DNA of 64,000 bases from an uncultured Gammaproteobacteria bacterium. GTDB taxonomy: Bacteria; Patescibacteriota; Patescibacteriia; XYB2-FULL-38-15. The translations under genes and the position numbers were made by a program. The notes below the pieces were generated by a model. That model was not told where the DNA came from. It made no database searches and saw only the letters and a list, made by a program, of their open reading frames with translations. The stretch covers positions 50,938 through 114,937 of the forward strand of contig OZ246416.1 in assembly GCA_965231095.1 (NCBI GenBank), given 5' to 3'. Each line of letters starts with the position of its first letter. Within the stretch, counting starts at the first letter, position 1. Below are positions 173 to 51,004 of this stretch, piece by piece.

Positions 173-667
173 ATGTCTCCAGAAACAAAAGACATAGAAC
201 GCGGCGCGCTTTTGGCCGGGTGGAAAATTCCCGAATACACAAAACATGAGCGAGGCCGTTATTGGTACCTTTGGGCGGGAATAATTTTTGCGTTGCTTTT
301 GACGTACGCAATTTACACGCTGGATTTTCTTTTTGCGGTTATTTTAGTTTTAGCGGCGGTAATTATTTTTATTCGTTCGCGCGAGGAGCCGGCGGAAATT
401 GATTTTAATATTTTTGAAAGGGGAATTGGCGTGGGGGGAAAATTTCATACATGGAAAGAGATGGTTTGTTTTTACATAATTTATGAACCGCCGGAAGTTA
501 AAAATTTATATTTTGATTTAAAGGGTTTGAGGTCAAGATTATCTATTCCGCTCGGAAGTCAAAATCCAGTTAAAGTAAGGGAGGCATTGTTAAAATATCT
601 GACAGAAAATTTGAATGAGGAGAAGGAACCCCTATCCGAAGAGTATGAAAGATTTTTGAAAATTTAG
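173..667 (+). CDS. hypothetical small membrane protein (two predicted TM helices)
   Basis: 164-aa ORF with hydrophobic segments (WYLWAGIIFALLLTYAIY..LVLAAVIIFI); no recognisable domain. Confidence 0.5.
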   Translation: MSPETKDIERGALLAGWKIPEYTKHERGRYWYLWAGIIFALLLTYAIYTLDFLFAVILVLAAVIIFIRSREEPAEIDFNIFERGIGVGGKFHTWKEMVCFYIIYEPPEVKNLYFDLKGLRSRLSIPLGSQNPVKVREALLKYLTENLNEEKEPLSEEYERFLKI

Positions 668-2968: not shown

Positions 2969-3592
2969 TTATTTTTTTGATATGAATTTATTTCCCTTAA
3001 TATAAAACCTCCAGGGTTTATTTTTGTATCGGCCGGCGTAATCCACCCCGACTCTTTTCGCGGCAACAATTTCCGACGATTTTATTTTTACGCCGCGATC
3101 TTCAACCCATAAAATATCAGAGGTGAGGTCGGTGGTATTTAAAGATTTATCTATTTTTAACGCCTGACAAAGTTTGCCCGGGCCGTTTGTGAGACTTCGT
3201 TCATCTTTCGGCGCGTGGCGTTCGTGGCGCATTAAGTCAGCTCCCTCGGCTGGTTCTAACGCGCGGATTAAAATTGCCGCCGGATAATTTTCTTTTTCCG
3301 TGACAATATTAAAACAATAATTCAGGCCGTAAATTAAATAAATATAAGCGTGGCCTGGAGGGCCAAACATCGGCGCGGTGCGGGCGGTTTTTCCGCGGGA
3401 GGCATGGCTAGCCTTGTCGCTCGGTCCGACATAGGCTTCAGTTTCTACAATTTTTCCAGCAAGAATTTTTTTACCAATTTTTTTGACTAAAAATTTACCC
3501 AGGATCTCCTGGGCAACTTTCAATGTTTCTCTATTATAAAATTTTTTTTTAATTTTCTTCTTCATTTTTTTCTTCGGTATGGCGTATGTCAA
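2969..3592 (-). CDS. DNA-3-methyladenine glycosylase (Mpg/AAG family); true start probably internal (overlaps radA 3' end)
   Basis: Motifs ETEAYVGPSDKASHA, GPPGHAYIYLIYGLNYCFNIV, LTNGPGKLCQALKI characteristic of PF02245. Confidence 0.8.
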   Translation of the reverse strand: MTYAIPKKKMKKKIKKKFYNRETLKVAQEILGKFLVKKIGKKILAGKIVETEAYVGPSDKASHASRGKTARTAPMFGPPGHAYIYLIYGLNYCFNIVTEKENYPAAILIRALEPAEGADLMRHERHAPKDERSLTNGPGKLCQALKIDKSLNTTDLTSDILWVEDRGVKIKSSEIVAAKRVGVDYAGRYKNKPWRFYIKGNKFISKK

Positions 3593-4937
3593 GTTGGAGA
3601 TATTTTATCGCTTCGGCGATATTTTTTATTTTTGTAATTTTTATATTTCCCTTAACTTGTTGTTTAAAGTTTGGCGCCAAAATTTCTTTGAATCCCATTT
3701 TTTCCGCCTCATTAATTCTTTTTTCAATTTGTCCCGCCGCGCGCACTTCGCCGCCCAAGCCGACTTCGCCAAAAGCGAGCATGGTCCGCGGCAGAGGTTT
3801 ATTTTTAAAAGCGGAGGCTACAGCCAAAACGACGGCAAGGTCGCAGGCCGGTTCTTGAATTTTATAACCGCCGGCGACGTTTAAATGGACATCGTGCGTT
3901 CCCAAATTTATTCCCGCCCTTTTTCCCAAAACCGCGAGAAGGAGCTGCAAGCGATTTAAATCAAAACCGCCGGAACGCCGTTGGGGATAGCCAAAATAAG
4001 TTCGGGAAACAAGCGATTGAATTTCAACGAGTAGCGGCCGGGAACCTTCAATCACGCAAGTCGTAGCCGAGCCGGCGATATCGCTATCGCGTTCTTCAAG
4101 AAAAATCGCCGAAGGATTTTTAACTTCTTCTAGGCCACTTGATTTCATTTCAAAAATTCCCACTTCATCGGTTCCGCCAAATCTATTTTTAACGGTGCGC
4201 AGCAGCCGGTAGGCGTGGAAGCGATCGCCTTCAAGATATAAAACCGTGTCCACTAAATGTTCCAGAGTTTTTGGTCCGGCGACTTGGCCTTCTTTTGTGA
4301 CATGGCCGATTATGAAAATCGGAATATTGTTTTTTTTGGCGACTTCCAAGAGTTTTACGGTGCAGGCGCGGACTTGGTTTACGCTGCCGGCTTCGGAGGG
4401 GAGTTCGGGCGTGGCCATGGTTTGGATTGAATCAATAATCGCCATGGCCGGTTTTAATTTTTCTATTGTCGAACAAATTATATTAATATTTGTTTCGCCC
4501 AAAAATTGAAGGGCGGTGGTTTTAAGCCCCAAGCGGTCCAGCCGCATTTTTATCTGTTCGGCGGATTCTTCTCCGGAAACGTAAAGAGTATTTCCGTTTT
4601 TTCCCGACGCGGCCATTTGCGCCACAAGAGTTGATTTTCCAATTCCCGGTTCGCCGCCCAAAAGTACAAGCGAGCCCGGAACAATTCCGCCGCCTAAAAC
4701 CTGATCAAGCTCATTAATGCCGGTTTTTATCCGCGCGAAATCTTTTCCTGTGACCTCATTAAAATTTACGACTTTACCCATGGGCATTTTTCCCGATTCT
4801 TGCATTTTTTGACTTTCAGATTTCATTACTTCCGAAAGTGTTCCCCACGCGCCGCATTCCAAGCACCGCCCCGCCCACTTGGTGGATTGAGCCCCGCACT
4901 TGGAACATTCATAAATTGTTTGTGGTGAATTGGGCAT
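3549..4937 (-). CDS. radA: DNA repair protein RadA/Sms
   Basis: N-terminal zinc ribbon CSKCGAQSTKWAGRCLECGAWGTL, Walker A GGEPGIGKSTL, KNRFG motif, C-terminal Lon-protease-like domain. Confidence 0.9.
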   Translation of the reverse strand: MPNSPQTIYECSKCGAQSTKWAGRCLECGAWGTLSEVMKSESQKMQESGKMPMGKVVNFNEVTGKDFARIKTGINELDQVLGGGIVPGSLVLLGGEPGIGKSTLVAQMAASGKNGNTLYVSGEESAEQIKMRLDRLGLKTTALQFLGETNINIICSTIEKLKPAMAIIDSIQTMATPELPSEAGSVNQVRACTVKLLEVAKKNNIPIFIIGHVTKEGQVAGPKTLEHLVDTVLYLEGDRFHAYRLLRTVKNRFGGTDEVGIFEMKSSGLEEVKNPSAIFLEERDSDIAGSATTCVIEGSRPLLVEIQSLVSRTYFGYPQRRSGGFDLNRLQLLLAVLGKRAGINLGTHDVHLNVAGGYKIQEPACDLAVVLAVASAFKNKPLPRTMLAFGEVGLGGEVRAAGQIEKRINEAEKMGFKEILAPNFKQQVKGNIKITKIKNIAEAIKYLQLDIRHTEEKNEEEN

Positions 4938-4942
4938 ATTTT

Positions 4943-6673
4943 TTACGGTTCTGGTTTATAGGTTGATGTGAGTGGGAAGGGGAGACCACAGGTGCTTTTT
5001 AGGCAAACAGTCCCTCTTTTGACAACTTTTCCCGGAGAACCCTGAACTACACTGGCTACTCCTGCTCGTGAGGTCCAGCCCATAAAAATCACGGCATGGC
5101 CACCTCGCGTAGACGAGTTGGCATTAAAAATCACAATGGAATCACCGGCCTGCAATTCGTCTGCCCAAGAATCCGGATAACCATCACCGATTCCGCTCCT
5201 TAATTTTTCATAAACCTTTCTTATTTGTTCTGCGGATTTGCAATCGGGTATACTTCCGTCGCAATTCATTGTATCTAAATATGCCCAAAGATCACTGTAT
5301 GAATAGACGGAGTGTCTCACTATGCCGCGGGTTGAGACTCCTAAACCATTTTTTAATGCCTCCTCAACGTTTCGTCCTCTTTGGCCAGCCGTAGCTTGCG
5401 GAACTCCGGCTAAGTAGTTAATTCTCAAATTTGATTCTCCGCAACTTCCCAGGATAACACAACAATTGGCAGCCGCATTTGCGACAGCTGTAACTTTAGC
5501 CCTTGTGCTTCCGCTACTAGGAATTAGTTTTTTCATAAATTCTAACGCACGAGTATTCCCCGGGCCAGTCCCAGTGTCCGCTTGTGCTTCTGCCGAAAAA
5601 GTCACAAAGCATCTTGACAAGCTCTCATCACATTTTTCAGAGGTCGCAATCGGTCTACTCCCTTCTGGAACCGAAGTATCCGATGCCGCGGCTTCACTGG
5701 CCGCAGCAGTATCAACGTTATTCCACGTTGCCTCCTCAATATACTTTACTTTTAATGAATCAAACTCCGTCAATTTGGGATTTATGGCAAAAAGAAGCAA
5801 ATATGAAGTTAAAGCAATAACCAAACCCACGAGTGACGATTCAATAAAACTTTTTGCCGTGGAAACTTTTCCTGCGTCTCCGCCGGCTGTGAGCCAGAGA
5901 AGTCCACCAATGACAATCATAATTCCCGCCAAGATTCCGACGACGCCGATGGCATATTTATAAATTGCCGCAATGTATTGCCCAAGCCAGGGGATTAAGA
6001 GATAACGGTTTGGTGCGTCGCCCTGGAGTGTCAAATCGGCAAATTGAGAAAGACTTGGGAGAGTGGGTAGAGGAATTTCAAGGGTAGGGGTGACAGATTC
6101 AAATTGATGCGGCGCCGGAGGTTCGGCAACGGGGCTCAGTTTTTCGCAAGTCGTTTTTGTTTCATCGCAGAGAAGAGATGATAATGAGGCACCTAAACAT
6201 TGCGCTTTGGCAAGACCGCAAAGATAATTGCAGGCGTCCTCGGTGGCAGTCAGAACTTCGAATCCTCCTACGATAACTTCCGACCCATCACTTTTTCTCG
6301 GAGTAAATTTACATTTTATCGTTAAAGTCGGAGTAGTTGTCTCGCCGCAAGTTGTGTAAGTCGCGTCGCAGTTTTCCGGATCGTGGGGGATGGCGTCAAG
6401 AATGCCGCCGCCTGAAGCGCATTGGGCCATCAGTCCGCCAGAAAATTCTCGGCTGCATTTTAGCAAACATTCTGCTTTTTCCAGTTCTCTGCTCCAAGGC
6501 CGGTGATCGGCGTCAGAGCCGGTATATATGATATTCCGGCTGCTATCGCGCGGGACGTATTCGCACTGAATTTTTTCCGCCAAAACCGGGCCGCCCATAA
6601 ATAAAAATAACACCGGTGATAAAAAAAATACTGACATCGCGGCGAAAAAATTTCGGCGGTTTGTTTTTTTCAT
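4943..6673 (-). CDS. secreted Cys-rich surface protein with a TrbC/VirB2-like two-helix membrane hairpin and a C-terminal CHAP/NlpC-P60-like putative hydrolase domain
   Basis: Signal peptide MKKTNRRNFFAAMSVFFLSPVLFLF; many Cys in the N-terminal region; hydrophobic hairpin IGGLLWLTAGGDAGKVSTAKSFIESSLVGLVIALTSYLLLF resembling conjugative pilins; C-terminal GDSIVIFNANSSTRGGHAVIF resembling the His motif of CHAP/NlpC-P60 hydrolases. Confidence 0.45.
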   Translation of the reverse strand: MKKTNRRNFFAAMSVFFLSPVLFLFMGGPVLAEKIQCEYVPRDSSRNIIYTGSDADHRPWSRELEKAECLLKCSREFSGGLMAQCASGGGILDAIPHDPENCDATYTTCGETTTPTLTIKCKFTPRKSDGSEVIVGGFEVLTATEDACNYLCGLAKAQCLGASLSSLLCDETKTTCEKLSPVAEPPAPHQFESVTPTLEIPLPTLPSLSQFADLTLQGDAPNRYLLIPWLGQYIAAIYKYAIGVVGILAGIMIVIGGLLWLTAGGDAGKVSTAKSFIESSLVGLVIALTSYLLLFAINPKLTEFDSLKVKYIEEATWNNVDTAAASEAAASDTSVPEGSRPIATSEKCDESLSRCFVTFSAEAQADTGTGPGNTRALEFMKKLIPSSGSTRAKVTAVANAAANCCVILGSCGESNLRINYLAGVPQATAGQRGRNVEEALKNGLGVSTRGIVRHSVYSYSDLWAYLDTMNCDGSIPDCKSAEQIRKVYEKLRSGIGDGYPDSWADELQAGDSIVIFNANSSTRGGHAVIFMGWTSRAGVASVVQGSPGKVVKRGTVCLKSTCGLPFPLTSTYKPEP

Positions 6674-6691
6674 AATATTTTAAAAATTTAT

Positions 6692-7939
6692 TTACTGCAA
6701 TCGCACTCGCTCTATCCGGCCCGTCTGGCTATTGGTAAAAGTTAAATATTGGCCGTCGGAAGTGATCGCGACATTTTCCGCGCTAAAAGATCCGTAAGGA
6801 ACGGCGACAAGACTTCTAAGTCCGGTTGTTAAATCAATTCTGTAAAATGAATCCGGGGTGGATCTGAAAAGTTCAGGTTGGAATCCGGCGCCGGTTTCCA
6901 TGGATTGAGGCACGGCGCAGTAAACGGTGTCATCGTCGGCAAAAGTGCATTTGTCGGCCCAAGTATTTACCGAGAGGCTTCTTCTTCCGGTTCCAATACT
7001 GTCTCCTTGCGCGCCCACAATCCAAAGGGTGGGTTTATATTCGGAAGCAGAGTTATAAACAGAATAAAGCAAGCGATCGCCGGTTTCCGACCATTCGGAT
7101 TGGAATCCTTGCCCTTCAACAGTTAACCCCGGAAAATTTTCATGATTTTTCCCGACGAAAAGAATTTGTTGGCGTTCAAAACCCATGGCCTGGCCGGTGC
7201 GCGAGGTGGCAATCACTTGATTGTTTGGCGACCAATTTACATCTACTTTATCCGCGTTATCGCCAAGGGGTTCAATGGCTTTTACTCCCGTGCCGTCGGG
7301 ATTGGAAGTAAAAAGCCAACGGTTATTTGGATCAATGCCAATGCTTTTACCGGCGATTTGGGCGCCGTCAGGAGAAAAACTAAAACCCTCCCAGTGTTTT
7401 GGCAGAGTGAATTGCTTGTCTGACGCGAAATCGTAGAGAACATTCGCCCCGTCGGGAAATTCCAAAATTGCCTTGTCGGTCGTGGGCGCCCAATTTACTT
7501 TTTCCACATTTTGAAAAGTTTTGTCGGAGAGTTTTAAAATATTTCCGTTTTCATCAACGCGATAGAATTTTCCATCGGTTGTGTCATAATAGGCAACATC
7601 TTTTCCGCTTGATGACATTAAAGCGTTAGCTACGGGTTTATCAACAAGCGTCCCCACCCAAGTTACGCCGCCCTTGGCAACAGTTGAAATTTCTTTAGGC
7701 AATTGTGGTGGAGGAGTAAGCGATGGCGCGAGAATTTGTGTCGGGGTCGCGGAAACTTCAACCGGCGTGGGCGGGCCCTCTAACGCTCGGCCAAGGCCGC
7801 CCGGCGTTACGGCTTCATTTGTGATTGGGGCGTTTACAATCGGAGCGGTGGGCCGGAAAAAAACATAATACATTAAATATCCGATGCCAAGCGTGACACC
7901 GATAAAAGCTGCAACAATTAATATTTTTTTCCAATCCAT
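6692..7939 (-). CDS. membrane-anchored TolB-like beta-propeller (PD40/WD40-like repeat) protein
   Basis: N-terminal TM anchor, Pro-rich linker, then repeated beta-propeller-like blades (NWAPTTD, FSFSPDGAQIAGKS, NWSPNNQVIATS, SPDGQYLTFT). Confidence 0.55.
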   Translation of the reverse strand: MDWKKILIVAAFIGVTLGIGYLMYYVFFRPTAPIVNAPITNEAVTPGGLGRALEGPPTPVEVSATPTQILAPSLTPPPQLPKEISTVAKGGVTWVGTLVDKPVANALMSSSGKDVAYYDTTDGKFYRVDENGNILKLSDKTFQNVEKVNWAPTTDKAILEFPDGANVLYDFASDKQFTLPKHWEGFSFSPDGAQIAGKSIGIDPNNRWLFTSNPDGTGVKAIEPLGDNADKVDVNWSPNNQVIATSRTGQAMGFERQQILFVGKNHENFPGLTVEGQGFQSEWSETGDRLLYSVYNSASEYKPTLWIVGAQGDSIGTGRRSLSVNTWADKCTFADDDTVYCAVPQSMETGAGFQPELFRSTPDSFYRIDLTTGLRSLVAVPYGSFSAENVAITSDGQYLTFTNSQTGRIERVRLQ

Positions 7940-7981
7940 ATTTTTAGTTATTAGTTAATAGTTATCAGTTAGCAGTTTTTA

Positions 7982-8878
7982 TTACGTCATACTGCGAAGA
8001 GATTTGATCCTTTCTTCCGCCGGGGGATGAGTCGAAAATAATTTATGAAAAAATTTTCCGGTTTTTGCGCCGAAAGGATTTGAAATATAAAGATGAGCCG
8101 TGGCGTCGTTGGCGCGTTTCATTGGTTCCCTATAAGCGGTAATTTTTTCGAGCGCTCGCGCCAATCCTTCGGGGTAGCGAGTTAAAAGCGCTCCGTCGGC
8201 GTCAGCTAAAAATTCTCGTTTTCGGGAAACCGCGAGTTGGATAAGTTTACCGATAAGCGGCGAGATTATTGCCAAAACAATGCCGGCTATAAGTAAAATC
8301 GCGCCAAGCTGTCCGCCGCCGTCGCGGTCATCGCGCCTTCCTCCAAAAAAACGAAAGCGTAAGAGCCAATCGGAAAGAAGCGCCACAACGCCGACTAAAA
8401 CAATCACCACCATCATTAACCGGATGTCATAATTTTTAATATGAGAAAGTTCGTGGGCAATAACTCCTTCCAGTTCCTCATTTTCCAGCCGTTCAATCAA
8501 GCCGGTAGTTATGGCGATTGAAGCGTGCTTCGGATCGCGGCCGGTGGCAAAGGCATTGGGCGCCGGATCAGTAATGATATAAACTTTAGGCGTGGGAAGG
8601 CCAGAGGTGATGCAGAGATTTTCCACCATTCGGTAGACGTAAGGATTATCATTTTTTTGGATCGGCCCTTTCGCGCCGGCAGTCCAAAGGGCGATTTTAT
8701 CTCCGCTATAAAAACTAAAGAGCGCCATCACAAGAGAAATAATAATGGCGAAAAAAAGCGAGCCGTATCCAAAATCCGAGATTTGGCTGAAAATCCAGCC
8801 GACAAAAATTACGAAAATAACAAAAATCGCGATTAACAAAAATGATTTTCGCTTATTAGAAGTGATTTGTTTATACAT
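7982..8878 (-). CDS. htpX: M48 family zinc metalloprotease HtpX
   Basis: HELSHIKNYD HExxH motif, two N-terminal TM segments, typical HtpX size; ATG at 8876-8878 preferred over the TTG at 8920. Confidence 0.85.
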   Translation of the reverse strand: MYKQITSNKRKSFLLIAIFVIFVIFVGWIFSQISDFGYGSLFFAIIISLVMALFSFYSGDKIALWTAGAKGPIQKNDNPYVYRMVENLCITSGLPTPKVYIITDPAPNAFATGRDPKHASIAITTGLIERLENEELEGVIAHELSHIKNYDIRLMMVVIVLVGVVALLSDWLLRFRFFGGRRDDRDGGGQLGAILLIAGIVLAIISPLIGKLIQLAVSRKREFLADADGALLTRYPEGLARALEKITAYREPMKRANDATAHLYISNPFGAKTGKFFHKLFSTHPPAEERIKSLRSMT

Positions 8879-8941
8879 AAACAGGTTTGAGACTTGAGAA
8901 TTGAGAAATTTTAATCTCAATTCTCATTTTCCAAATCCGTT

Positions 8942-9505
8942 TTAGAATTTCACGGCCGGGGCTTCTCTTTGTGCCGCTTCTTCTATTTCAAAAAATTCTT
9001 TTGACTTGAAGCCAAACATTCCGGCAATAGTGTTCGTCGGGAATTGTTCCGTTTTAGTGTTGAAGTCGCGGACGTTGCCGTTATAAAAGCGGCGGGCGGC
9101 TTGAACTTTATTTTCTGTGTCGGATAATTCATCTTGCAACTGCAAAAAATTTTGCGAAGCCTTGAGGTCGGGATAATTTTCCGCTACGGCAAAAAGGGAT
9201 TTTAGGGTTCCGGCGAGCATATTTTCCGTTTTGGCAATTTCGGCCGGATTTCCGCCTTTTTCCGCGTTAATAGCCGCGGCGCGGGCCAAAGTTACTTTTT
9301 CAAAAACTTCCTTTTCGTGGCCGGCGTAGCCTTTGACTGTTTCCACAAGATTTGGGATCAAGTCGTAGCGGCGTTTTAGTTGGACATCAATGTCAGACCA
9401 GGCTTCGTCCGTGCGGTTTCGGAGAGTAATTAATCCGTTGTAGGTGGCGATGAGCCAGATTACAATCAGGCCGACGGCACCTAAGAGTACCCAGAGAATA
9501 ATCAT
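8942..9505 (-). CDS. lemA: LemA family protein
   Basis: N-terminal TM then [51 protein letters not shown], characteristic LemA; conserved htpX-lemA pairing. Confidence 0.85.
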
Positions 9506-9647
9506 AAATTTAGACAGACGACTGACGACAAACGACTGACGACGCGGAGGTTGTTAGTTGTAAGTCGTTAGTTGTAAGTTGTAAGAATTCTTTTATTATT
9601 ATATAATGAAAAAATACAAAAGTCAAAGTTATCTTTGAAGTTGTTTT

Positions 9648-10997
9648 ATGTCCATAAATTCATCAATTTTTAAGGCTTACGATATCCGCGGGATTTACCC
9701 CGAAGATTTGAATGAAGAGGTAGTATACCGTATTGGCCGGGCGGCGGTTGTTATTACCGGCGCGAAAACCGTGGTGATTGGACGTGATGTCCGCGCTTCG
9801 TCGGACGCCCTTTTTGAATCATTGGCAAAAGGCGTAATGGAACAGGGGGCAAATGTGGTTGATATTGGAGTTGTGACCACTCCAATGTTGAATTTTGCGG
9901 TGGGTGAATATAAGGAGCATGAGGCGGGGATTATGGTGACCGCTTCGCATAATCCGAAAGAATATAATGGTTTAAAATTGTGTTATGAAAATACTTTGCC
10001 AATCGGTGAAAATACGGGCATGGCCGAGCTTGCACGGGCGGCCACGGAAGAGAATTTTCCCGCTGCGCCGACTGTTGGTAAATTGGTAAAAAAAGAAATC
10101 TTGAATGCTTATATAGAAAAAGTTTTAAGTTTGGTGGATGTTAAAAAAATCAAACCGTTAAAAGTTGTGGTGGATACGGCGAACGCGGTGGGGGCGGTTC
10201 CATTGCCCGAAATTTTTAAAAAAATTCCGTGTAAATTAATCCCGCTATATTTTGAACTTGACGGAAATTTTCCAAATCATGAAGCCAATCCGCTGAAAGA
10301 AGAAACTTTGGAAGATTTAAAAAAGAAAGTTTTAGAAGAAGGGGCGGATCTTGGCGTGGCAATTGACGGCGACGCCGACCGGATTGGTTTTGTTGATGAA
10401 AAAGGGAACACTGTGCGCGCTGATTTGATTTCAACTTTGATTGCCAAAGAGTTATTACGGGAAAAACCGGGAGAATTAATTTTATATGATGTGCGTTCAA
10501 GTCTGGTAGTTCGTGAAGAAGTTGAAAACGCTGGCGGCCGGGCGGAAATGTGCCGCGTCGGCCACGCCCCAATAAAAAAACAAATGTGGGATCATGGCGC
10601 GCTTTTTGCCGGGGAATTTTCTTCGCATTTTTATTATCGGGATTTTTATAACGTGGAATCCGGAGATCTGACCATGTTGAAATTATTGGAAATTATTAGC
10701 GAGTCCGGGAAAAATTTTAGAGATATTGTCGCGCCGCTTAATCGGTATTTTCATTCCGGAGAAATAAATTTTAAAGTGAGTGATAAGACGGGAAAAATGA
10801 AAGAATTAGAAAAAAAATATGGCGCCGCGGCAAAAGAAGTTTCTCATCTTGACGGAATTCGTTTGGATTTTTCTGATTGGTGGTTTAATGTCCGGCCGTC
10901 AAATACTGAACCGCTTTTAAGATTAAATTTGGAAGCAAAAACAAAAGAAATGATGGAGGAAAAGAAAAAAGAATTAACAGAGTTTATCAACAAATAA
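9648..10997 (+). CDS. phosphomannomutase/phosphoglucomutase family (alpha-D-phosphohexomutase)
   Basis: FKAYDIRG and TASHNPKEYNGLK active-site serine loop; GVAIDGDADR metal-binding loop. Confidence 0.85.
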   Translation: MSINSSIFKAYDIRGIYPEDLNEEVVYRIGRAAVVITGAKTVVIGRDVRASSDALFESLAKGVMEQGANVVDIGVVTTPMLNFAVGEYKEHEAGIMVTASHNPKEYNGLKLCYENTLPIGENTGMAELARAATEENFPAAPTVGKLVKKEILNAYIEKVLSLVDVKKIKPLKVVVDTANAVGAVPLPEIFKKIPCKLIPLYFELDGNFPNHEANPLKEETLEDLKKKVLEEGADLGVAIDGDADRIGFVDEKGNTVRADLISTLIAKELLREKPGELILYDVRSSLVVREEVENAGGRAEMCRVGHAPIKKQMWDHGALFAGEFSSHFYYRDFYNVESGDLTMLKLLEIISESGKNFRDIVAPLNRYFHSGEINFKVSDKTGKMKELEKKYGAAAKEVSHLDGIRLDFSDWWFNVRPSNTEPLLRLNLEAKTKEMMEEKKKELTEFINK

Positions 10998-20413: not shown

Positions 20414-20517
20414 TTTTGTTAGTGGAGTTTTACTAAAACCCCATTTTCGTGTATAATTGAATAATGTGTTTTGTTAATATTAGCTCCAAGCGGGGCTGTA
20501 ATATATTTTTTAAAAAT

Positions 20518-21969
20518 ATGAAAAAACTCATCGCGAAAAAAGTATTTTTTGGGGTGGCGATTTTTGTTGTCACCTTTTTGCCATTTGGCCTCGGCGCCCA
20601 ATCTTTAGAATACGATTTGGGCATAAGCGCGGGTGATATTTTCTTTTCAGAGGCAACTTTAATCGCGGGCAAGCCAATGAGGCTTTATGCCTCCATAAGA
20701 AATTATGGCACGAGAGATGTTTCGGGTTATGCCACTTTTTATTCGGGTCCAACCATTATTGGTTCATCGCAAGTCGTTTCAGTGCGCGCCGGCGGTTATA
20801 GCGACGAAGTTTTTGTTGACTGGACCATTCCCGAAGGAAGTTTCAATGTGAAAGTTGATATAAATGGCCAATTGCCTCAAGATCAAAATCCATCCAACGA
20901 TTCGGCCCTGACTGGAATGTTTTTTCCGGAAAAAGATACCGATGGCGATGGAGTGATTGATAAAAATGACAATTGCCCCAGCATGGCGAATTCCAACCAA
21001 ACAGATACCGACGGCGATGGAATAGGAAATGTTTGCGATGCCGACGATGATAATGACGGATTGACTGATGTAAAAGAACAAGAAATCGGGACAGATCAAC
21101 TTGATTCAGATACTGACAATGACGGAGTTTTAGACGGCCAAGATAATTGCCCAAAAGTTTCCAACGCGAACCAAGCCGATAAAGACAAAGATGGCGCGGG
21201 TGATGCTTGCGATTCAGTTGATAATAGCGGTCCGCCGCCAAGTTCTGGCGGTGGCTCCTCCTCTCCGGTTGATACAGATGGAGACGGAGTGGCCGACGGC
21301 CGTGATAATTGTAAAACAGTGGCTAACGCTTCCCAGGCAGACAACGATAAAGACGGGATCGGAGATGTTTGCGATTCTGATGATGATAATGACGGAGTGA
21401 GCGACGTCGACGAAGGAAAAACCGGGACTGATCCAAAAAATTCAGATACTGATAATGATGGGACAAAAGACGGCGATGATGCCGCGCCATTGAATCAAGA
21501 TGAAAGTGGTGTCTTAGGCGAAGAGGGTGGAGAGGGTGAGGATGTTTTAGTAGGCGGAGGAACTCTCAGGGGCGACGATTTTTCCGGACAAACCACGGGA
21601 CTAGAAAATATATTTATTGATTCATCCCAACTAAGTTGGAATACTTTTATTTTTAAAGTCAGAGATAATTCCGGAATGGAAAATTTAAGTTATGACTGGG
21701 ATTTAGGGGATAATACGGCCGCCTCCGGAAGCGAAGCCCAGCATTCCTACGGAAAGTCGGGGACGTACCTTGTAATTTTAAGCATTAATGACGGAGCGGG
21801 CGTTGTGAAAAAAGTTCCGACCACCGTGCGAGTAAGTTTCTTGTCAGTAAAAAATCCATACCTCTCTTTCCCGCTCGGAATTTTGTTTGGCTTGACAATT
21901 CTTTTCGGAACCAGAAAATGGTTAAAGAAGAAAAATGAATTGAACGAGATAGACGGAGAAATTAAATAG
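20518..21969 (+). CDS. secreted calcium-binding surface protein with thrombospondin type-3 repeats and a PKD-like domain, C-terminal TM anchor
   Basis: Signal peptide MKKLIAKKVFFGVAIFVVTFL; repeated DTDGDGVxDxxDNCPxxxNxxQxDxDxDGxGDxCD units; YDWDLGDNTAASGSEAQHSYGKSGTYLVILSINDGAG PKD signature; C-terminal hydrophobic helix. Confidence 0.7.
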   Translation: MKKLIAKKVFFGVAIFVVTFLPFGLGAQSLEYDLGISAGDIFFSEATLIAGKPMRLYASIRNYGTRDVSGYATFYSGPTIIGSSQVVSVRAGGYSDEVFVDWTIPEGSFNVKVDINGQLPQDQNPSNDSALTGMFFPEKDTDGDGVIDKNDNCPSMANSNQTDTDGDGIGNVCDADDDNDGLTDVKEQEIGTDQLDSDTDNDGVLDGQDNCPKVSNANQADKDKDGAGDACDSVDNSGPPPSSGGGSSSPVDTDGDGVADGRDNCKTVANASQADNDKDGIGDVCDSDDDNDGVSDVDEGKTGTDPKNSDTDNDGTKDGDDAAPLNQDESGVLGEEGGEGEDVLVGGGTLRGDDFSGQTTGLENIFIDSSQLSWNTFIFKVRDNSGMENLSYDWDLGDNTAASGSEAQHSYGKSGTYLVILSINDGAGVVKKVPTTVRVSFLSVKNPYLSFPLGILFGLTILFGTRKWLKKKNELNEIDGEIK

Positions 21970-21996
21970 ATTTAAAAATATTTTTAAGGAGGTACT

Positions 21997-23178
21997 ATGG
22001 CAAAAAACAAAACATCGCGAAAACATGAGGCGCCGGTCAGTTTTTATAGAAAAATCGCTTTTGTTTTCGTGGCGCTGACGAGTGTTTTAATAATTTTCGC
22101 GGCGTACTTTGTTTTGAGTAGGGCCGAGATAACCGTGACTATTGCCAAGGAATCGGTCAGTACGGATTTTATTGCCGACTTGAAGGAAGTGGCTGTGCAA
22201 AATCCGGCCGAGCCGTCGGTTGCCGTGCCCGGCGCGGCGACAATTTCGGGAAAAGTTACGGAAGCGACTGTTTCGGGAAGCGAAGAGTATCCGACTACCG
22301 GGAAGAAAACCGCGGAAGGGGAGGTGGGCGGGACGGTTACAATTTTTAACAATTACAGCAAAGACCAGCCGCTTGTGGCGACCACGCGATTGCTTTCTTC
22401 AGAAGGTATTTTATATCGTCTAAAAAACAGAGTTAACGTCCCAGCCGGCGGCAAAGTGGAAAATGTGGAAGTCTACGCCGACACGCCCTCGGAGGCGGCA
22501 TCAAAACTCGGGCCGACAAAATTTACCATTCCCGGACTTTGGGAAGGATTACAAGATAAAATTTATGCCCAGAGTTTTGGGGCGATGCACGGCGGAGAGC
22601 AAGAAGTTAAATTTGCCACACAAGCTGATCTGGATAATGCTTACGCCGATTTAACAAAAACTCTTTCGGAACAACTATTGAATGATTTAAAAAAGGAAAT
22701 GCCCTCGGCCGGAGAGATTTTTGGAAAAGTTGTAATAAAAGAAATTTCTGAAAAACGCAGTAGTCTTAAGGCAGACGCCGTGGGAGATAAATTTACCATC
22801 AACTTGAAAATGAAAGTTATTGGCATCGCTTTTTACAAGCGAGATTTGGAAAGTTTGGCATGGCAAGAATTGAGCGCGAAAATTCCGGCGGATAAAGAGT
22901 TAAAGAGCGTTGATTATGAAGGCATGACTTTCCTGGTGGAAAAATATGATGTGGAAAGCGGCGAGGCAAATATTTTAGTTCATCTTGCCGGAGAGATGGC
23001 TCTGAAAGTTGACAGCTCCATTTTTGACAAAGATAAATTTATCGGACTCTCCAAGGAAAAAATAATCCAGTATCTGTCTATTTATCCGGAGATTGAACGC
23101 ATCACCATAAAATTTTCTCCTTTCTGGGTGAAAAAAGTTCCGCAGATAAAAAATAATATCAGCATCATTGTTAAATAA
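21997..23178 (+). CDS. hypothetical membrane-anchored protein
   Basis: 393 aa, N-terminal TM (IAFVFVALTSVLIIFAAYFVL), no recognised domain. Confidence 0.5.
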   Translation: MAKNKTSRKHEAPVSFYRKIAFVFVALTSVLIIFAAYFVLSRAEITVTIAKESVSTDFIADLKEVAVQNPAEPSVAVPGAATISGKVTEATVSGSEEYPTTGKKTAEGEVGGTVTIFNNYSKDQPLVATTRLLSSEGILYRLKNRVNVPAGGKVENVEVYADTPSEAASKLGPTKFTIPGLWEGLQDKIYAQSFGAMHGGEQEVKFATQADLDNAYADLTKTLSEQLLNDLKKEMPSAGEIFGKVVIKEISEKRSSLKADAVGDKFTINLKMKVIGIAFYKRDLESLAWQELSAKIPADKELKSVDYEGMTFLVEKYDVESGEANILVHLAGEMALKVDSSIFDKDKFIGLSKEKIIQYLSIYPEIERITIKFSPFWVKKVPQIKNNISIIVK

Positions 23179-42506: not shown

Positions 42507-42717
42507 TTAAACCTCTCCGCCCACGGCGGAAAATGAGGTGAAATTGGCTAATATTTATTAAGTTATTATAGCATAGATTATTTTGTAAAACAAGGGTTTA
42601 ATGTTTGACTTTTTATAATAAAAAAAGATAGGATAAAAGCGCTTCTCATGGCGAGAAGACCCGGGCCACGGGCAGTGGCAAATTACCTTCGGGCTTACAG
42701 TCCGGAAGGAGACAGAA

Positions 42718-43632
42718 ATGGCGAAGTATGAAAAGCTGAACCTGGGTCAGATTGAAGCGCTCGTGAACATCTTGGGTGGCATGGAGGTCGTGAAGAAGAT
42801 TCTTCGCGGGACGAAGAAGCCTCTTCCCCCGGACAAAGGCTTTCGGTCCCTTTTTGACAACTACGGCCGCCGCGTTGCGCCTCCTACGATGAGCGACAAG
42901 GGAGGAGCCGATCCGGAGGTGTGTTTGGCTCAGCCGGCGATGCATCTTCCACCGGGACCGGGAACAAGGTTCAAGGGTTTGTGCGAACGCCTTGGCTGGC
43001 AGAACCAGATGACTCCGGAAGAATTTCGCGCGCGGGTGGACAAGGCGGTAGAGAAGATCAACTTCGGCAGCATCAGAGAAGAGGTGAGGGGAATTTTGGG
43101 TGGTGTGTATCTGCCCTTTGGTCTTCCGCAGGTGACCTCCAGCGATTGCGGGGAGATCCTTGACGAACTCGGCTTGATCAATGCGGTTGAGCGTGTTTTC
43201 AAGGAAAGATTTCCCGAGGGGCAGTTTTTCGGACAAGAAAAATCCCTGAAGGGAGGCTTCCGCTTGATCGAAGGAAGTCGCCACGAGCGATTTTTGGAGG
43301 CCTTGACAAAGGAGCCGGTCGTTGCCATCTACTTCCCATTGGCGCTCCAAGGGTATTTGCCCGATAAGGCCGTCGAGCAGATGGAGAGCCTGCCGGAAGA
43401 GTTTCTGCTTTCCGGTGTGGTTGATACAGCGGCGGCGATCATGATGTATCCGGAAGTTCTACTTCGGGACACCTGCGTGCCGCAGCTCGGATGTTCGGCA
43501 GTGAAGCGCTGGGTGACCGGAGTTTCCTCATTCGATGTCAGTGACGGCAGCGACAAGATCACGCTCGCCTTCGGGGGGTGCCAGATCTTTGGGCGCGGCA
43601 AGTTTACTTCCGGCCTCACCGTCATCGCGTAG
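42718..43632 (+). CDS. GC-rich island C: hypothetical 304-aa protein, no recognisable domain
   Basis: ~60% GC; SD GGAAGGAGA 6 nt before ATG; TTGACT promoter-like element at 42605; downstream terminator 43695-43728. Confidence 0.6.
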   Translation: MAKYEKLNLGQIEALVNILGGMEVVKKILRGTKKPLPPDKGFRSLFDNYGRRVAPPTMSDKGGADPEVCLAQPAMHLPPGPGTRFKGLCERLGWQNQMTPEEFRARVDKAVEKINFGSIREEVRGILGGVYLPFGLPQVTSSDCGEILDELGLINAVERVFKERFPEGQFFGQEKSLKGGFRLIEGSRHERFLEALTKEPVVAIYFPLALQGYLPDKAVEQMESLPEEFLLSGVVDTAAAIMMYPEVLLRDTCVPQLGCSAVKRWVTGVSSFDVSDGSDKITLAFGGCQIFGRGKFTSGLTVIA

Positions 43633-48738: not shown

Positions 48739-49623
48739 TTAAATTTCAAAAATAGCAATTCTATTTCTTCCCGAAAGATCTTGTTTAATCTTAATTTTTG
48801 CGGAAGGGAAGCGGCGTTTGATTAATTTTGTGATGGATTTTTTTTGAGAAGGGTCGATTTCAAAGATTGAAGTAATGGGTGACGAGTAATGGGTAACGAG
48901 GAATTCTATTTGTTGGAGGAGCTCGCGGTAATAATTTAAGCCATCGGTACCGCCGTCAAGCGCCGTTCGTGGTTCGTATTTTTTTATTTCCGGCTGGGTT
49001 TTTTGCCATTGGCGGGTTGTGAGATACGGAAGGTTGGCGACAATTAATAAATTTTCAATTTTCAATTTACAATTTTCAATTTTGCGAATTACAGGTTTTA
49101 GTAAGTCGCCATGGATTAGGGTGACGGCCGCCTCGTGGTGTTTAATATTTTTTCTTGCCACCTCCATGGCGCCGGAGGAAATTTCCGTGGCGAAGATTTT
49201 GGCATTGGGCAGACGGCGGGCAAGTGCGATGGCGATGGCCCCGCTTCCGGTTCCGACATCGACGATTGATGTATCTTGTATCTTGTATTTTGTATTTTGT
49301 ATTTTTCTCAAAACTTCCTCCACTAAAATTTCCGTTTCGGGGCGGGGGATTAAAACATTTTTGTTTACAAAAAAATCCAGGCCAAAAAATTCTTTGAGGC
49401 CAGTGATGTAGGCGATTGGTTCATGTTTGGCGCGGCGGGCGATAAGTTTTTTAAATTTTAACAATTGTGCCGCCGTCAATTTTTTTTCAGAATGCGCGTA
49501 TAAAAATTCTCGCGGTTTTTTTATGACAAAAGATAAAAGAATCTCGGCGTCCAAAGACGGGGAGAGAGTTTTTGATTTTTTTAAAATTTTTATCGCCCAG
49601 ACGATGGATTGTTTGATGGTCAT
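48739..49623 (-). CDS. prmC: release factor glutamine N5-methyltransferase PrmC/HemK with several in-frame tandem-repeat inserts
   Basis: SAM motif VDVGTGSGAIAIALA, NLPY substrate motif; in-frame repeats at 48860-48895, 49040-49090, 49265-49300. Confidence 0.85.
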   Translation of the reverse strand: MTIKQSIVWAIKILKKSKTLSPSLDAEILLSFVIKKPREFLYAHSEKKLTAAQLLKFKKLIARRAKHEPIAYITGLKEFFGLDFFVNKNVLIPRPETEILVEEVLRKIQNTKYKIQDTSIVDVGTGSGAIAIALARRLPNAKIFATEISSGAMEVARKNIKHHEAAVTLIHGDLLKPVIRKIENCKLKIENLLIVANLPYLTTRQWQKTQPEIKKYEPRTALDGGTDGLNYYRELLQQIEFLVTHYSSPITSIFEIDPSQKKSITKLIKRRFPSAKIKIKQDLSGRNRIAIFEI

Positions 49624-49706: not shown

Positions 49707-50297
49707 TTACGGGGAAGTGATGTCCTTCGTCCCGTCGTAGGGATCGCCGGAGTCGGCGGAATCGTCGGCGGGCGGCGCAGCGGGCGAGACGACCTCGACT
49801 TCCTCCTCGATGTCCTCGGCCACCACGACCGTGGTTTCCGGCGCGTCTTCGAGGATCTCGACCATCTTCATCGCCTGGCGCACACAGGCCGACAGCTCGG
49901 CGGTGGAGAAGGCGTAGGAGAGTTGTTCGAAGGTAACCCGGCGTCCTGGTTCCGTGTCCTTCGACATCCAGTGTTCGATCAGCTTGGCGAGATCATCGTC
50001 GGAGACGCGTTTCAGGATCTCCTCGATCGCGGATTTTGCGCCGTTCTCGATACCGCCGAGCATCGCCTGGCGCATGATGGGCACGGTGTCTTTCTTGTCA
50101 CCGGGCCAGATCCCGAGTAGATCGCCAACGATCTTCTCGAAGGTGTGCACTTGGGCAATGTGAGCCAGGCCGCTGGCCCGGCTCAAATTGATGTGGTGCA
50201 AGATGATCCAGATGTTCAGGACGCCGAGATCCACGAAGTGCTGGAGCATCGCCGCTAGCGTCAACTTCTTGTCTCTTTCCTTCTTGGATTCCGCCAT
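49707..50297 (-). CDS. GC-rich island D gene 2: hypothetical ~197-aa protein (helical, acidic C-terminal tail)
   Basis: MAESKKERDKKLTLAAMLQHFVDLGVLNIWIILHH...; ~62% GC; minus-strand promoter cTTGACAa-N17-TAAGGT at 50342-50370; 5' UTR palindrome CTCCGATTAATCGGAG. Confidence 0.55.
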   Translation of the reverse strand: MAESKKERDKKLTLAAMLQHFVDLGVLNIWIILHHINLSRASGLAHIAQVHTFEKIVGDLLGIWPGDKKDTVPIMRQAMLGGIENGAKSAIEEILKRVSDDDLAKLIEHWMSKDTEPGRRVTFEQLSYAFSTAELSACVRQAMKMVEILEDAPETTVVVAEDIEEEVEVVSPAAPPADDSADSGDPYDGTKDITSP

Positions 50298-50382
50298 TGT
50301 CTTCCACTCGCTCCGATTAATCGGAGTCCTTTCTATCCGCACCTTAGTTTAAAAAATAAAATTTGTCAAGATAAAAAAAGAG

Positions 50383-50445
50383 CCCGTGGATTGCTTGGAG
50401 TTGGGGCACGGGACGTGTCTCCAAAGCAATCCACGGGCTGGGTGA
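50383..50445 (-). terminator. long-stem intrinsic terminator after island D zinc-ribbon gene
   Basis: agcccgtggattgcttggag...ctccaaagcaatccacgggct ~20-bp stem followed on minus strand by ctcttttttt. Confidence 0.6.
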
Positions 50446-50608
50446 TGCCCAGCGGGTGCCGTGAGGCTGGCCGGCTGGGCTCAGTCGCGTGACCCGCCCG
50501 GGGGGTAGGAGGGCACCGGGGAGCCGACGCGAGCTTGGGGAACGGAGAGTTCTCGAGCGAACTCGCAAACTCTCACGTTATTGGTGGGTAAGTTACAGGC
50601 GGGTCTTG

Positions 50609-50881
50609 TCAGGGTCGGGGGCAGTTCCGGACGACATGCATTCGCTTGCGCCTGGCGCGGGCGACGCCGTCCGTGTACTTCTTGCCCTTGCGTTCGGCGA
50701 AAGTGTGCATCGAGCAGTAGTGCCCGGTATTCCCGCTACGGAGAATCGTTCCACAGTCGGGTTCCTGGCATCGCCGCGGCTTGCCATCGTCGGTGCTCCG
50801 ACCGCTGTCGTGCACGTCGCCGAGCGAATTGGCGCCGACCGTGCCGGTACCCTGATCCATTCCGAGCGCGCTCCAGTCCAT
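50609..50881 (-). CDS. GC-rich island D gene 1: 90-aa Cys/His-cluster (zinc-ribbon-like) protein, possibly nucleic-acid binding
   Basis: ...RRCQEPDCGTILRSGNTGHYCSMHTF...; SD GGAGGAGGAAGG before ATG; 5' UTR hairpin ccttgcgt..acgcaagg. Confidence 0.55.
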   Translation of the reverse strand: MDWSALGMDQGTGTVGANSLGDVHDSGRSTDDGKPRRCQEPDCGTILRSGNTGHYCSMHTFAERKGKKYTDGVARARRKRMHVVRNCPRP

Positions 50882-51004
50882 CCTTCCTCCTCCTCAACCT
50901 TCCCTATTATCAACTCGTCCTGTCCACCAGGCCGAGGCTTAGGGCCACCTTCCTTGCGTTTTGACGCGTGCCAATAACGCAAGGCCACCCTGTTTGTTGA
51001 TTTT

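What the first reader, a model, noticed from the sequence alone, without database searches (positions are those of the whole stretch)
4943..7939. Adjacent surface-protein pair: Cys-rich VirB2-like/CHAP-like protein and TolB-like beta-propeller
The 576-aa protein combines a signal peptide, a disulfide-rich ectodomain, a membrane hairpin strikingly similar to TrbC/VirB2 pilins, and a C-terminal domain with the His motif of CHAP/NlpC-P60 hydrolases (GDSIVIFN...GGHAVIF). The neighbouring gene encodes a membrane-anchored PD40-type propeller. In an episymbiont-like genome this could be a host-attachment or cell-wall-remodelling apparatus, or a conjugation/T4SS remnant.
Basis: inference. Interest (0 to 1): 0.55.

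Follow-up and report, generated by a model that had tools for sequence, protein, structure and literature searches.

The report
Pilin-anchored cell-wall hydrolase beside conserved propeller
In this ultrasmall (Patescibacteria) genome, a membrane hairpin of the kind that builds type IV secretion pili carries two disulfide-rich outer domains, one of them a predicted cell-wall-cutting enzyme, and it belongs to a fast-shuffling family of such "pilin-enzyme" fusions that the papers I could search do not describe.

Summary
Both genes are real and sit exactly where reported (minus strand: 576 aa at 4943-6673, 415 aa at 6692-7939).

**576-aa protein, in order:**
- A signal peptide.
- A 12-Cys duplicated N-domain.
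- A two-helix hairpin of Pfam T4SS_pilin (PF18895, the Patescibacteria "VirB2-like" pilin).

**Family pattern:**
- Relatives carry the same hairpin fused to other, mostly wall-active, enzymes: SLT, glucosaminidase, M15/VanY, 3D, C39-like, GDSL and metallophosphatase.
- They occur as arrays of 1-4 genes at one fixed locus.
- N- and C-domains are shuffled independently and diverge far faster than the flanking genes.

**415-aa neighbour:** a membrane-anchored, generic seven-bladed propeller, not TolB. It is very widespread in Patescibacteria and usually lies just upstream of these arrays, often with a DsbA-like gene between. The whole block is syntenic, so a functional link is unproven.

**T4SS link:** a VirB4-like ATPase lies 6-9 kb away in relatives. 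In this genome that region falls outside the window.

**Verdict:** This is a new variant of a known kind. Function is inferred, not shown.

The parts
4943..6673 (-). Gene for the 576-aa pilin-hairpin / hydrolase fusion protein (stop codon 4943-4945)
   Evidence: ORF; 42 homologues, all Patescibacteria; PF18895 hit
6578..6673 (-). Signal peptide, aa 1-32 (n-region KKTNRR, hydrophobic core, VLA|EK)
   Evidence: Hydropathy; conserved N-termini in homologues; coordinates. Cleavage is inferred
6104..6577 (-). N-terminal ectodomain, aa 33-190: 12 Cys arranged as two tandem 6-Cys modules (Cys37-109 and Cys121-176); variable 'type A' cassette
   Evidence: No family or fold assignment; a binding role is inferred
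5714..6103 (-). Conserved core, aa 191-320: pre-hairpin motif (P.LEIPLPTLP...RY..IPW.GQY) plus the T4SS_pilin hairpin (TM1 aa 232-263, loop GGDAGKVSTAK, TM2 aa 275-298)
   Evidence: PF18895 aa 230-290; 79-92% identical among close relatives while the ectodomains are 34-53%; 50-61% identical to small stand-alone pilins
5642..5713 (-). Low-complexity Ala/Ser linker, aa 321-344
   Evidence: Sequence; pLDDT < 50 at its end
4946..5641 (-). C-terminal ectodomain, aa 345-576: predicted papain-like (NlpC/P60-CHAP superfamily) Cys/His hydrolase. It has 7 conserved Cys (3 likely disulfides plus 1 free)
5441..5443 (-). Codon of Cys411, predicted nucleophile (LGSCG, at the N-terminus of a helix)
   Evidence: 67/67 conserved; helix starts at domain residue 80
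5096..5098 (-). Codon of His526, predicted general base (GGHAVIF, at the start of a beta strand)
   Evidence: 67/67 conserved; strand 194-202 of the model
5042..5044 (-). Codon of Gln544, candidate third catalytic residue
   Evidence: Q43/N7/E6/S5/H2/T2 across 67 members. The His-to-Gln spacing of 18 compares with 17 between His117 and Glu134 in the LysK CHAP sequence; that those two LysK residues are catalytic is from my own knowledge
6692..7939 (-). Gene for the 415-aa membrane-anchored beta-propeller protein
   Evidence: ORF; more than 2170 homologues; AF2 pLDDT 87
7856..7933 (-). N-terminal transmembrane anchor of the propeller protein, aa 3-28
   Evidence: Helix 3-28; hydropathy
7688..7855 (-). 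Pro-rich, predicted disordered spacer, aa 29-84
   Evidence: pLDDT < 50 for aa 37-70
6695..7687 (-). Seven-bladed beta-propeller, aa 85-415 (28 strands in 7 groups of 4, plus a closing strand)
   Evidence: DSSP of the model; Foldseek top hits are 7-bladed propellers
9598..9626 (-). Best promoter-like site (TTGACT-17-TATAAT) upstream of lemA; possible start of a lemA-htpX-propeller-pilin fusion-radA-mpg transcription unit
   Evidence: The number of sites is not above chance, so the operon is inferred only from 5-63 bp gaps and an overlap

Best explanation
The 576-aa gene encodes a Sec-exported ecto-enzyme held on the outer face of the cell membrane by a Patescibacteria VirB2-like pilin hairpin (PF18895). 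After signal-peptide cleavage the N-domain lies outside, TM1 crosses inward, the short Lys-containing loop is cytoplasmic, and TM2 returns outward. Both Cys-rich domains are therefore extracytoplasmic and disulfide-bonded. The C-domain is a divergent NlpC/P60-CHAP-type Cys411/His526/Gln544 hydrolase that most likely cleaves peptidoglycan peptide or amide bonds. The duplicated 6-Cys N-domain is most likely a targeting or binding module. The protein is one cassette of a modular family in which the same strongly conserved hairpin carries interchangeable, mostly wall-active enzyme domains. The family occupies a fixed locus (propeller, sometimes DsbA, then the array, then radA) and lies close to a VirB4-type T4SS ATPase in relatives. 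I propose that it works with the T4SS-like apparatus to open peptidoglycan at the cell surface: certainly within reach of the cell's own wall, and of the host's wall if the hairpin is incorporated into a pilus or stalk. The anchored seven-bladed propeller is a conserved envelope protein of the same locus, possibly a scaffold or partner. My step-by-step probabilities are: architecture and topology about 0.85; wall-hydrolase activity about 0.6; functional coupling to the T4SS about 0.45; host wall as the target about 0.3; direct propeller partnership about 0.3.
Confidence: 0.5

Rival explanations
1. Housekeeping autolysin. The hairpin is only a membrane anchor, and the enzyme trims the cell's own peptidoglycan for growth, division or type IV pilus passage. 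It has no relation to a T4SS, and its adjacency to the propeller is mere synteny.
For: A membrane-tethered enzyme on a linker of about 45 residues reaches its own wall most easily. The locus lies among housekeeping genes whose order is conserved across Patescibacteria. The propeller persists without the fusions, next to a type IV pilus cluster, in L021 and L022. No T4SS genes are in the window.
Against: The hairpin sequence is conserved far more than a simple anchor needs, and it is shared with stand-alone pilins. The ectodomains diverge and recombine much faster than the neighbours (34-53% against 75-93% identity), and copy number and enzyme type vary between close relatives. That is unusual for a core autolysin. 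VirB4 is near the locus in several relatives.
Confidence: 0.3
2. The papain-like C-domain acts on something other than peptidoglycan (a protease, transglutaminase, deamidase or acyl-transferase on proteins or lipids), or it is a catalytically dead binding module. The protein would then be chiefly an adhesin or processing factor.
Confidence: 0.12
3. One reading: a decayed conjugation/T4SS remnant next to a TolB-like (Tol-Pal type) periplasmic protein.
For: The pilin-family hairpin has no other T4SS gene in the window. Weak PD40 signal. JGI names some homologues 'Tol biopolymer transport system component'.
Against: Both genes are intact, and the pair and its locus are conserved across deeply divergent Patescibacteria. 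The hairpin is under strong constraint. The propeller has seven blades, a TM anchor and no TolB N-domain, and TolB is only rank 39. Related loci hold intact VirB4-like genes.
Confidence: 0.03

Closest known systems
Patescibacteria VirB2-like T4SS pilins (Pfam PF18895 T4SS_pilin), e.g. the essential pilin array in the Southlakia epibionticum T4SS cluster
   Same: The same hairpin family, 50-61% identical to small members. A Sec signal peptide is present. They occur as tandem, highly divergent arrays and lie near virB4 in relatives (PMC12102498, PMC10633639).
   Different: This protein is 576 aa, against 134-226 aa for the small pilins found. It has a folded domain on each side of the hairpin, one of them enzyme-like. 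The array sits at a chromosomal locus between a propeller gene and radA rather than inside the T4SS operon. Enzyme fusions are not mentioned in the papers I could read.
VirB1-type cell-wall hydrolases of Gram-positive conjugative T4SSs (PrgK of pCF10, TraG of pIP501, TcpG of pCW3, CwlT of ICEBs1, Tn916 Orf14). The list is from my own knowledge and from PMC12102498
   Different: Those proteins are anchored by a single N-terminal TM helix, not a pilin hairpin. They usually combine two catalytic domains in one protein and are encoded inside the T4SS operon. Here each cassette has one enzyme domain, a Cys-rich N-module, rapid shuffling and no sequence similarity.
CHAP and NlpC/P60 (clan CA, C40/C51) peptidoglycan amidases and endopeptidases, e.g. 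Ly7917, LysK/LysGH15 CHAP, CwlO, LytE, MepS
   Different: There is no profile-level similarity. About 55 extra residues lie between Cys and His. There are three conserved disulfides. Only about 45% of the domain superposes, and Foldseek is not significant.
TolB / PD40 beta-propellers
   Same: An extracytoplasmic beta-propeller. PD40 repeats are detected above threshold in some homologues (29-35 bits against 20.9).
   Different: It has seven blades and an N-terminal TM anchor with a Pro-rich spacer instead of the TolB N-domain. There are no Tol-Pal genes or outer membrane. The best fold matches are generic WD40-type seven-bladed propellers.
Modular type IV pilins with grafted functional modules (e.g. 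Streptococcus sanguinis PilB/PilC). This is from my own knowledge
   Same: The concept is the same: a filament-subunit module carries a bulky functional domain that would be displayed on the filament.
   Different: The pilin superfamily is unrelated (a single N-terminal helix, type IV pilus machinery). Whether the present hairpin polymerises at all is unknown.

Membership tests
Pfam PF18895 T4SS_pilin (Patescibacteria VirB2-like pilin) | Match to the family HMM at or above the gathering score (26.6 bits) | tested here: inconclusive
   This protein scores 26.2 bits, E 8.2e-6, over aa 230-290 and 60 of 71 model positions. Homologues pass (L015 34.3 bits, P0036 30.4 bits). 54 of 67 proteins sharing the C-domain hit at E <= 0.01.
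Pfam PF18895 T4SS_pilin (Patescibacteria VirB2-like pilin) | Signal peptide followed by two hydrophobic helices joined by a short polar loop | tested here: met
   Hydropathy peaks at 16-24, 242-257 and 284-291; loop GGDAGKVSTAK. It aligns column for column with 134-226-aa stand-alone pilins.
Pfam PF18895 T4SS_pilin (Patescibacteria VirB2-like pilin) | Small protein consisting essentially of the hairpin | tested here: not met
   The protein is 576 aa, with a domain of about 160 aa before the hairpin and about 230 aa after it.
Pfam PF18895 T4SS_pilin (Patescibacteria VirB2-like pilin) | Encoded near virB4 or other T4SS genes | not testable with these tools
   None is present in the 64-kb window. 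In relatives VirB4-like and TraC-like genes lie 6-9 kb beyond recG, which here falls left of window position 1. The 886-kb source contig could not be fetched.
Canonical VirB2/TrbC pilins (PF04956; A. tumefaciens VirB2) | Sequence or profile similarity to TrbC/VirB2 | tested here: not met
   No PF04956 hit for this protein, and only 2 of 67 relatives hit at E about 7e-3. hhalign of the core profile against VirB2 (sequence confirmed against PDB 8cue) gives probability 1.7%, within the range of shuffles. No pilin chain was found by the profile search of the PDB.
Canonical VirB2/TrbC pilins (PF04956; A. tumefaciens VirB2) | Polymerises into a conjugative pilus | not testable with these tools
   This needs multimer modelling or cryo-EM/cryo-ET.
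CHAP (PF05257) / NlpC_P60 (PF00877) peptidoglycan hydrolases | Match to the family HMMs | tested here: not met
   No hit at E <= 1 in Pfam or NCBIfam. Among 67 relatives there were only single weak hits to DUF1175 (1.8e-3) and Amidase_6 (5e-3). hhalign against LysK/PlyGRCS CHAP gives probability 0.2%.
CHAP (PF05257) / NlpC_P60 (PF00877) peptidoglycan hydrolases | Papain-like alpha+beta fold | tested here: met
CHAP (PF05257) / NlpC_P60 (PF00877) peptidoglycan hydrolases | Conserved catalytic Cys (helix N-terminus) and His (beta strand), plus a polar third residue | tested here: met
   Cys411 67/67, His526 67/67, residue 544 Q/N/E/S/H/T. Secondary-structure positions are as expected. The dyad geometry in the model could not be inspected, and the Cys-His spacing (115) is atypically long.
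CHAP (PF05257) / NlpC_P60 (PF00877) peptidoglycan hydrolases | Hydrolysis of peptidoglycan | not testable with these tools
   This needs a biochemical assay.
TolB (Tol-Pal system) | N-terminal TolB alpha/beta domain followed by a six-bladed PD40 propeller | tested here: not met
   The protein has a TM helix, a disordered Pro-rich spacer and 28 strands forming seven blades. PD40 scores 18.8 bits, below the 20.9 cut-off. TolB is at Foldseek rank 39, behind generic seven-bladed propellers. The six-blade count for TolB is from my own knowledge.
TolB (Tol-Pal system) | Encoded with tolQRA/pal | tested here: not met
   The neighbours are lemA, htpX, the pilin fusion and radA. The same holds in 13 related loci.
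VirB1-like hydrolases of monoderm T4SSs | [quoted passage not shown] | tested here: inconclusive
   A membrane-anchored predicted hydrolase is present. Its position inside a T4SS cluster is not met in the window, and it lies 6-9 kb from virB4 in relatives. Whether it is required for assembly cannot be tested here.

The most novel reading that the evidence does not exclude
The hairpin is a true polymerising (or T4SS-docking) VirB2-like subunit. Patescibacteria would then build a T4SS pilus or stalk whose subunits display swappable enzyme cassettes (NlpC/CHAP-like, SLT, glucosaminidase, M15, C39-like, esterase, phosphatase) and Cys-rich binding modules. This would be an 'enzymatic pilus' that drills the host cell wall. 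It would supply the VirB1 function reported as missing in this phylum, and it would be diversified by recombination in an arms race with hosts. The conserved anchored propeller and the DsbA-like oxidase would serve as its assembly and folding factors.
Probability: 0.2. Interest if true: 0.85.

Novelty: new variant of a known kind. Interest (0 to 1): 0.6.

Why it matters
The role of the T4SS that is essential for epibiotic growth of Patescibacteria is unknown. Published surveys report many VirB2-like pilins but mostly no VirB1-type wall hydrolase (PMC12102498, PMC11665869).

A family in which the pilin hairpin itself carries wall-hydrolase and other enzyme domains offers a concrete, testable candidate for how these cells breach peptidoglycan, whether their own or the host's. 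Three further features strengthen this:
- The family sits at a conserved locus.
- It recombines its outer domains independently.
- It diverges far faster than its neighbours.

The finding also defines an unannotated branch of the NlpC/P60-CHAP superfamily (167 representative clusters). It flags a near-universal anchored propeller of unknown function, and it corrects a mis-called start codon. If the hairpin polymerises, this would be the first VirB2-type filament known to me with enzyme-bearing subunits.

Tried and rejected
**Sequence and profile searches for the C-domain that found nothing usable**
- Sequence searches of both proteins against the PDB gave nothing significant.
- Profile searches against the PDB gave no hit for the fusion family and only E > 0.03 propeller fragments for the neighbour.
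- NCBIfam gave no hit.
- PHROGs on 67 family members gave only four single-member hits at E about 1e-3.

**hhalign comparisons**
- The hairpin profile against A. tumefaciens VirB2 gave probability 1.7%, no better than shuffles. I therefore do not claim canonical VirB2 homology.
- The C-domain profile against LysK/PlyGRCS CHAP gave probability 0.2%.
- The C-domain profile against the C39_2-type sister cassettes gave probability 0.15%. The His motifs line up, but this is not statistically meaningful.

**Structure searches**
- Foldseek of the C-domain against the PDB returned the same CHAP lysins on top but no hit at E <= 1e-3.
- The afdb50 library was not available.

**Attempts to see the genome left of the window, where relatives have VirB4**
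- Three look-ups returned only a 23-kb Logan contig that ends there, or nothing.
- The genome-contig scan did not return the source genome.

**Other**
- A third homology search with the hairpin core alone returned only 5 proteins, so it did not give a census of architectures. It did reveal close stand-alone pilins.
- I rejected 'TolB-like' on blade count, missing N-domain, gene context and fold ranks.
- I rejected 'T4SS remnant' because the genes are intact, constrained and widely conserved.
- The promoter and terminator scan was no better than chance, so the operon is inferred only from short gene spacing.
Full report
**1. The observation**

The window carries two co-directional minus-strand ORFs exactly as reported: 4943-6673 (576 aa) and 6692-7939 (415 aa), separated by 18 bp.
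- They sit in a run of same-strand genes, lemA (8942-9505), htpX/M48 (7982-8920), propeller, fusion protein, radA (3549-4937) and mpg (2969-3592). These are separated by 5-63 bp or overlap.
- The best promoter-like site lies upstream of lemA, but the scan was no better than chance.
- All named homologues come from Patescibacteria genomes, Falkowbacteria among them.
- The rest of the window is housekeeping: RecG, DnaE, ThrRS, GatB, GyrB, FtsW, PrfA and others.

**2. Anatomy of the 576-aa protein**

BLAST mapping of 42 homologues and a full-length alignment divide the protein into five parts.
- **Signal peptide, aa 1-32.** It is conserved in homologues. The public 546-aa gene call starts too late and loses it.
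- **N-domain, aa 33-190.** It has 12 Cys arranged as two tandem 6-Cys modules.
- **Strongly conserved core, aa 191-320.** It comprises a Pro-rich pre-hairpin motif and two hydrophobic helices joined by the loop GGDAGKVSTAK.
- **Ala/Ser linker, aa 321-344.**
- **C-domain, aa 345-576.**

With a cleaved signal peptide and two membrane passes, both large domains are outside the membrane. This topology is inferred.

**3. The hairpin**

- Pfam places aa 230-290 in PF18895 (T4SS_pilin) at 26.2 bits, E 8e-6. That is 0.4 bits under the curated cut-off.
- The family-level signal is solid. 54 of 67 proteins sharing the C-domain hit PF18895, with a best E of 9e-11.
- Stand-alone pilins of 134-226 aa are 50-61% identical to the hairpin and align column for column.
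- I found no detectable similarity to canonical VirB2. hhalign against the A. tumefaciens sequence, confirmed against PDB 8cue, gives probability 1.7%, within the range of shuffles. TrbC PF04956 is hit weakly by only 2 of 67 relatives.
- The correct statement is therefore 'member of the Patescibacteria VirB2-like pilin family'. The link of that family to VirB2 rests on Pfam's naming and on the literature (PMC12102498, PMC10633639, PMC12857230).

**4. The C-domain**

*Sequence level.*
- A full HMMER scan of 1.84 billion representatives finds 167 relatives at E <= 1e-3. The domain is always at the C-terminus of proteins mostly 350-600 aa long.
- No sequence or profile method assigns it to a known family.

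*Predicted structure.*
- An AlphaFold model built on 67 sequences is confident: pLDDT 86, pTM 0.86.
- Foldseek ranks the same CHAP lysins first, but weakly: best E 4e-3 and TM-score about 0.2.

*Catalytic pattern.*
- Cys411 (in LGSCG) is invariant and sits at the N-terminus of a helix.
- His526 (in GGHAVIF) is invariant and sits at the start of a strand.
- Residue 544, 18 positions later, is Q, N, E, S, H or T.
- The His-to-third-residue spacing matches LysK CHAP, where His117 to Glu134 is 17 residues. That those LysK residues are catalytic is from my own knowledge.
- Seven Cys are conserved, an odd number. That fits three disulfides plus one free nucleophile.

*Caveats.*
- Only about 45% of the domain superposes on the templates.
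- The Cys-His spacing of 115 residues is about double the usual.
- I could not inspect the model coordinates.

**5. A modular, shuffled family**

*Interchangeable enzyme domains.* The same core is fused in relatives to the following domains:
- SLT/SLT_3
- glucosaminidase
- Peptidase_M15_4/VanY
- 3D
- Peptidase_C39_2
- GDSL esterase
- metallophosphatase

Most of these are wall-active.

*Arrays.* An HMM of the core finds one copy in the window and arrays of two to four paralogues in related loci.

*Unequal divergence.* Against the closest syntenic genomes (L001, L002, L006, L007):
- flanking genes are 75-94% identical;
- the hairpin core is 79-91% identical;
- the N-domain is only 48-53% identical;
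- the C-domain is only 34-35% identical, or is replaced altogether.

*Independent shuffling.*
- Among 11 full-length proteins, three N-domain types combine incongruently with three C-domain subtypes.
- For example, P0009 has N-type A, yet its C-domain is 81% identical to that of P0018 (N-type B) and 78% identical to that of P0022 (N-type C).
- This is the signature of cassette exchange around a constrained hairpin.
- The hairpin is conserved far more than a mere membrane anchor would need.

**6. The 415-aa neighbour**

- It has more than 2170 homologues.
- Pfam gives only sub-threshold PD40 and WD40 signals here. Some homologues pass the PD40 cut-off.
- The AlphaFold model (pLDDT 87) shows a TM helix at aa 3-28, a disordered Pro-rich spacer, and 28 strands forming seven blades.
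- Foldseek's top hits are generic seven-bladed propellers. Tricorn is at rank 11 and TolB only at rank 39.
- It is an anchored extracytoplasmic seven-bladed propeller, not TolB.

**7. Context**

- In all 11 genome loci found with the fusion protein, a propeller homologue lies directly upstream on the same strand.
- In six look-ups seeded with propeller homologues, which is an unbiased sample:
  - four have pilin-fusion arrays directly downstream (L015, L017, L019, L023);
  - two have none (L021, L022), and there the propeller sits beside a type IV pilus cluster.
- A DsbA/MdbA-like gene lies between the propeller and the array in nine loci. This fits disulfide-rich exported domains and the CPR-enriched oxidoreductase noted in PMC6744442.
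- The entire PGM-LemA-HtpX-(ClpB)-propeller-(DsbA)-[array]-RadA-MPG-RecG block is syntenic. Adjacency alone therefore does not prove a functional pair.
- In L001/L004, L002/L005, L006 and L015, a VirB4-like ATPase (P-loop_TraG 91-100 bits, AAA_10, DUF87) and a TraC-like gene lie 6-9 kb away, beyond recG.
- In this window recG is at 908-2956, so that region lies off the left edge. I could not retrieve it.
- No VirB4 or VirD4 gene is in the window.

**8. Interpretation**

*Shown:*
- the two genes;
- the domain architecture;
- membership of the hairpin in PF18895;
- the predicted papain-like fold with an invariant Cys/His pair;
- the modular family, its arrays, and its unequal divergence and mosaicism;
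- the conserved locus.

*Inferred:*
- the topology;
- disulfide bonding;
- peptidoglycan as the substrate;
- coupling to the T4SS;
- the target wall;
- any role of the propeller.

I commit to a pilin-hairpin-tethered NlpC/P60-CHAP-type wall hydrolase that works at the cell surface with the T4SS-like apparatus.
- **Main rival:** an ordinary autolysin using the hairpin only as an anchor.
- **Most novel reading not excluded:** the hairpin polymerises and displays enzyme cassettes on a pilus directed at the host wall.

**9. Comparison and novelty**

*What is already known.*
- VirB2-like pilin arrays in Patescibacteria are known and are essential in one cultured species.
- The same literature notes that most genomes with these pilins lack a recognisable VirB1 hydrolase.
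- It also notes that the role of the T4SS is unknown (PMC12102498, PMC10633639, PMC11665869, PMC12857230).

*What appears new.*
- None of the papers I could search or read mentions pilin-enzyme fusions.
- Automatic annotation simply calls them 'pilin', 'C39 family peptidase' or 'GDSL-type esterase'.
- The enzyme repertoire mirrors that of the VirB1-type hydrolases of Gram-positive T4SSs. The anchor, the architecture and the evolutionary behaviour all differ.

I rate this a new variant of a known kind, of moderate to good interest. The functional claims remain to be tested.

Noticed in passing
window 49800-51000: A 60-67% GC island in a genome of about 43% GC, between prmC (48739-49623, -) and prfA (51490-52530, -). 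ORFs overlap on both strands (e.g. 49707-50342 -, 211 aa; 50489-50977 +, 162 aa). None has a Pfam hit, and there is no Rfam match or tandem repeat. It may be a foreign insert or an undescribed RNA or gene.
   Followed up: partly
window 42600-43600: A second GC-rich patch (51-57%), with long ORFs overlapping on opposite strands (42646-43350 - and 42718-43632 +). Neither has a Pfam hit.
   Followed up: partly
window 20464-23178: A 501-aa predicted surface protein with five thrombospondin type-3 repeats and a PKD domain, followed by a 393-aa ORF with no Pfam hit. They are candidate adhesins in the same genome.
   Followed up: no
window 6578-6673: The public gene call for the fusion protein (P0001, 546 aa) starts 30 codons downstream of the conserved ATG and so omits the signal peptide. 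Homologues align from the upstream start.
   Followed up: yes
L019 9365-9970; L023 8278-8967; L021 8235-8975; L008-L014 about 9150-9990 or 7350-8060: A DsbA/MdbA-like thioredoxin gene sits directly after the propeller gene in many Patescibacteria, usually just before the pilin-fusion array. It is absent from that position in the window, and no homologue was found elsewhere in the 64 kb.
   Followed up: partly
L021 1-6811; L022 1-6693: In the two relatives that lack pilin fusions next to the propeller, the propeller gene is divergently adjacent to a complete type IV pilus cluster (PilM, two T2SSE ATPases, a response regulator and a T2SSF platform protein). This hints that the propeller may serve envelope machines more generally.
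   Followed up: no
window 173-667 (+); L001 16016-16510: A conserved 164-aa membrane protein with a weak DUF5673 match lies between recG and the T4SS-side genes in relatives and is flanked by two tRNA genes in the window. Its function is unknown.
   Followed up: no
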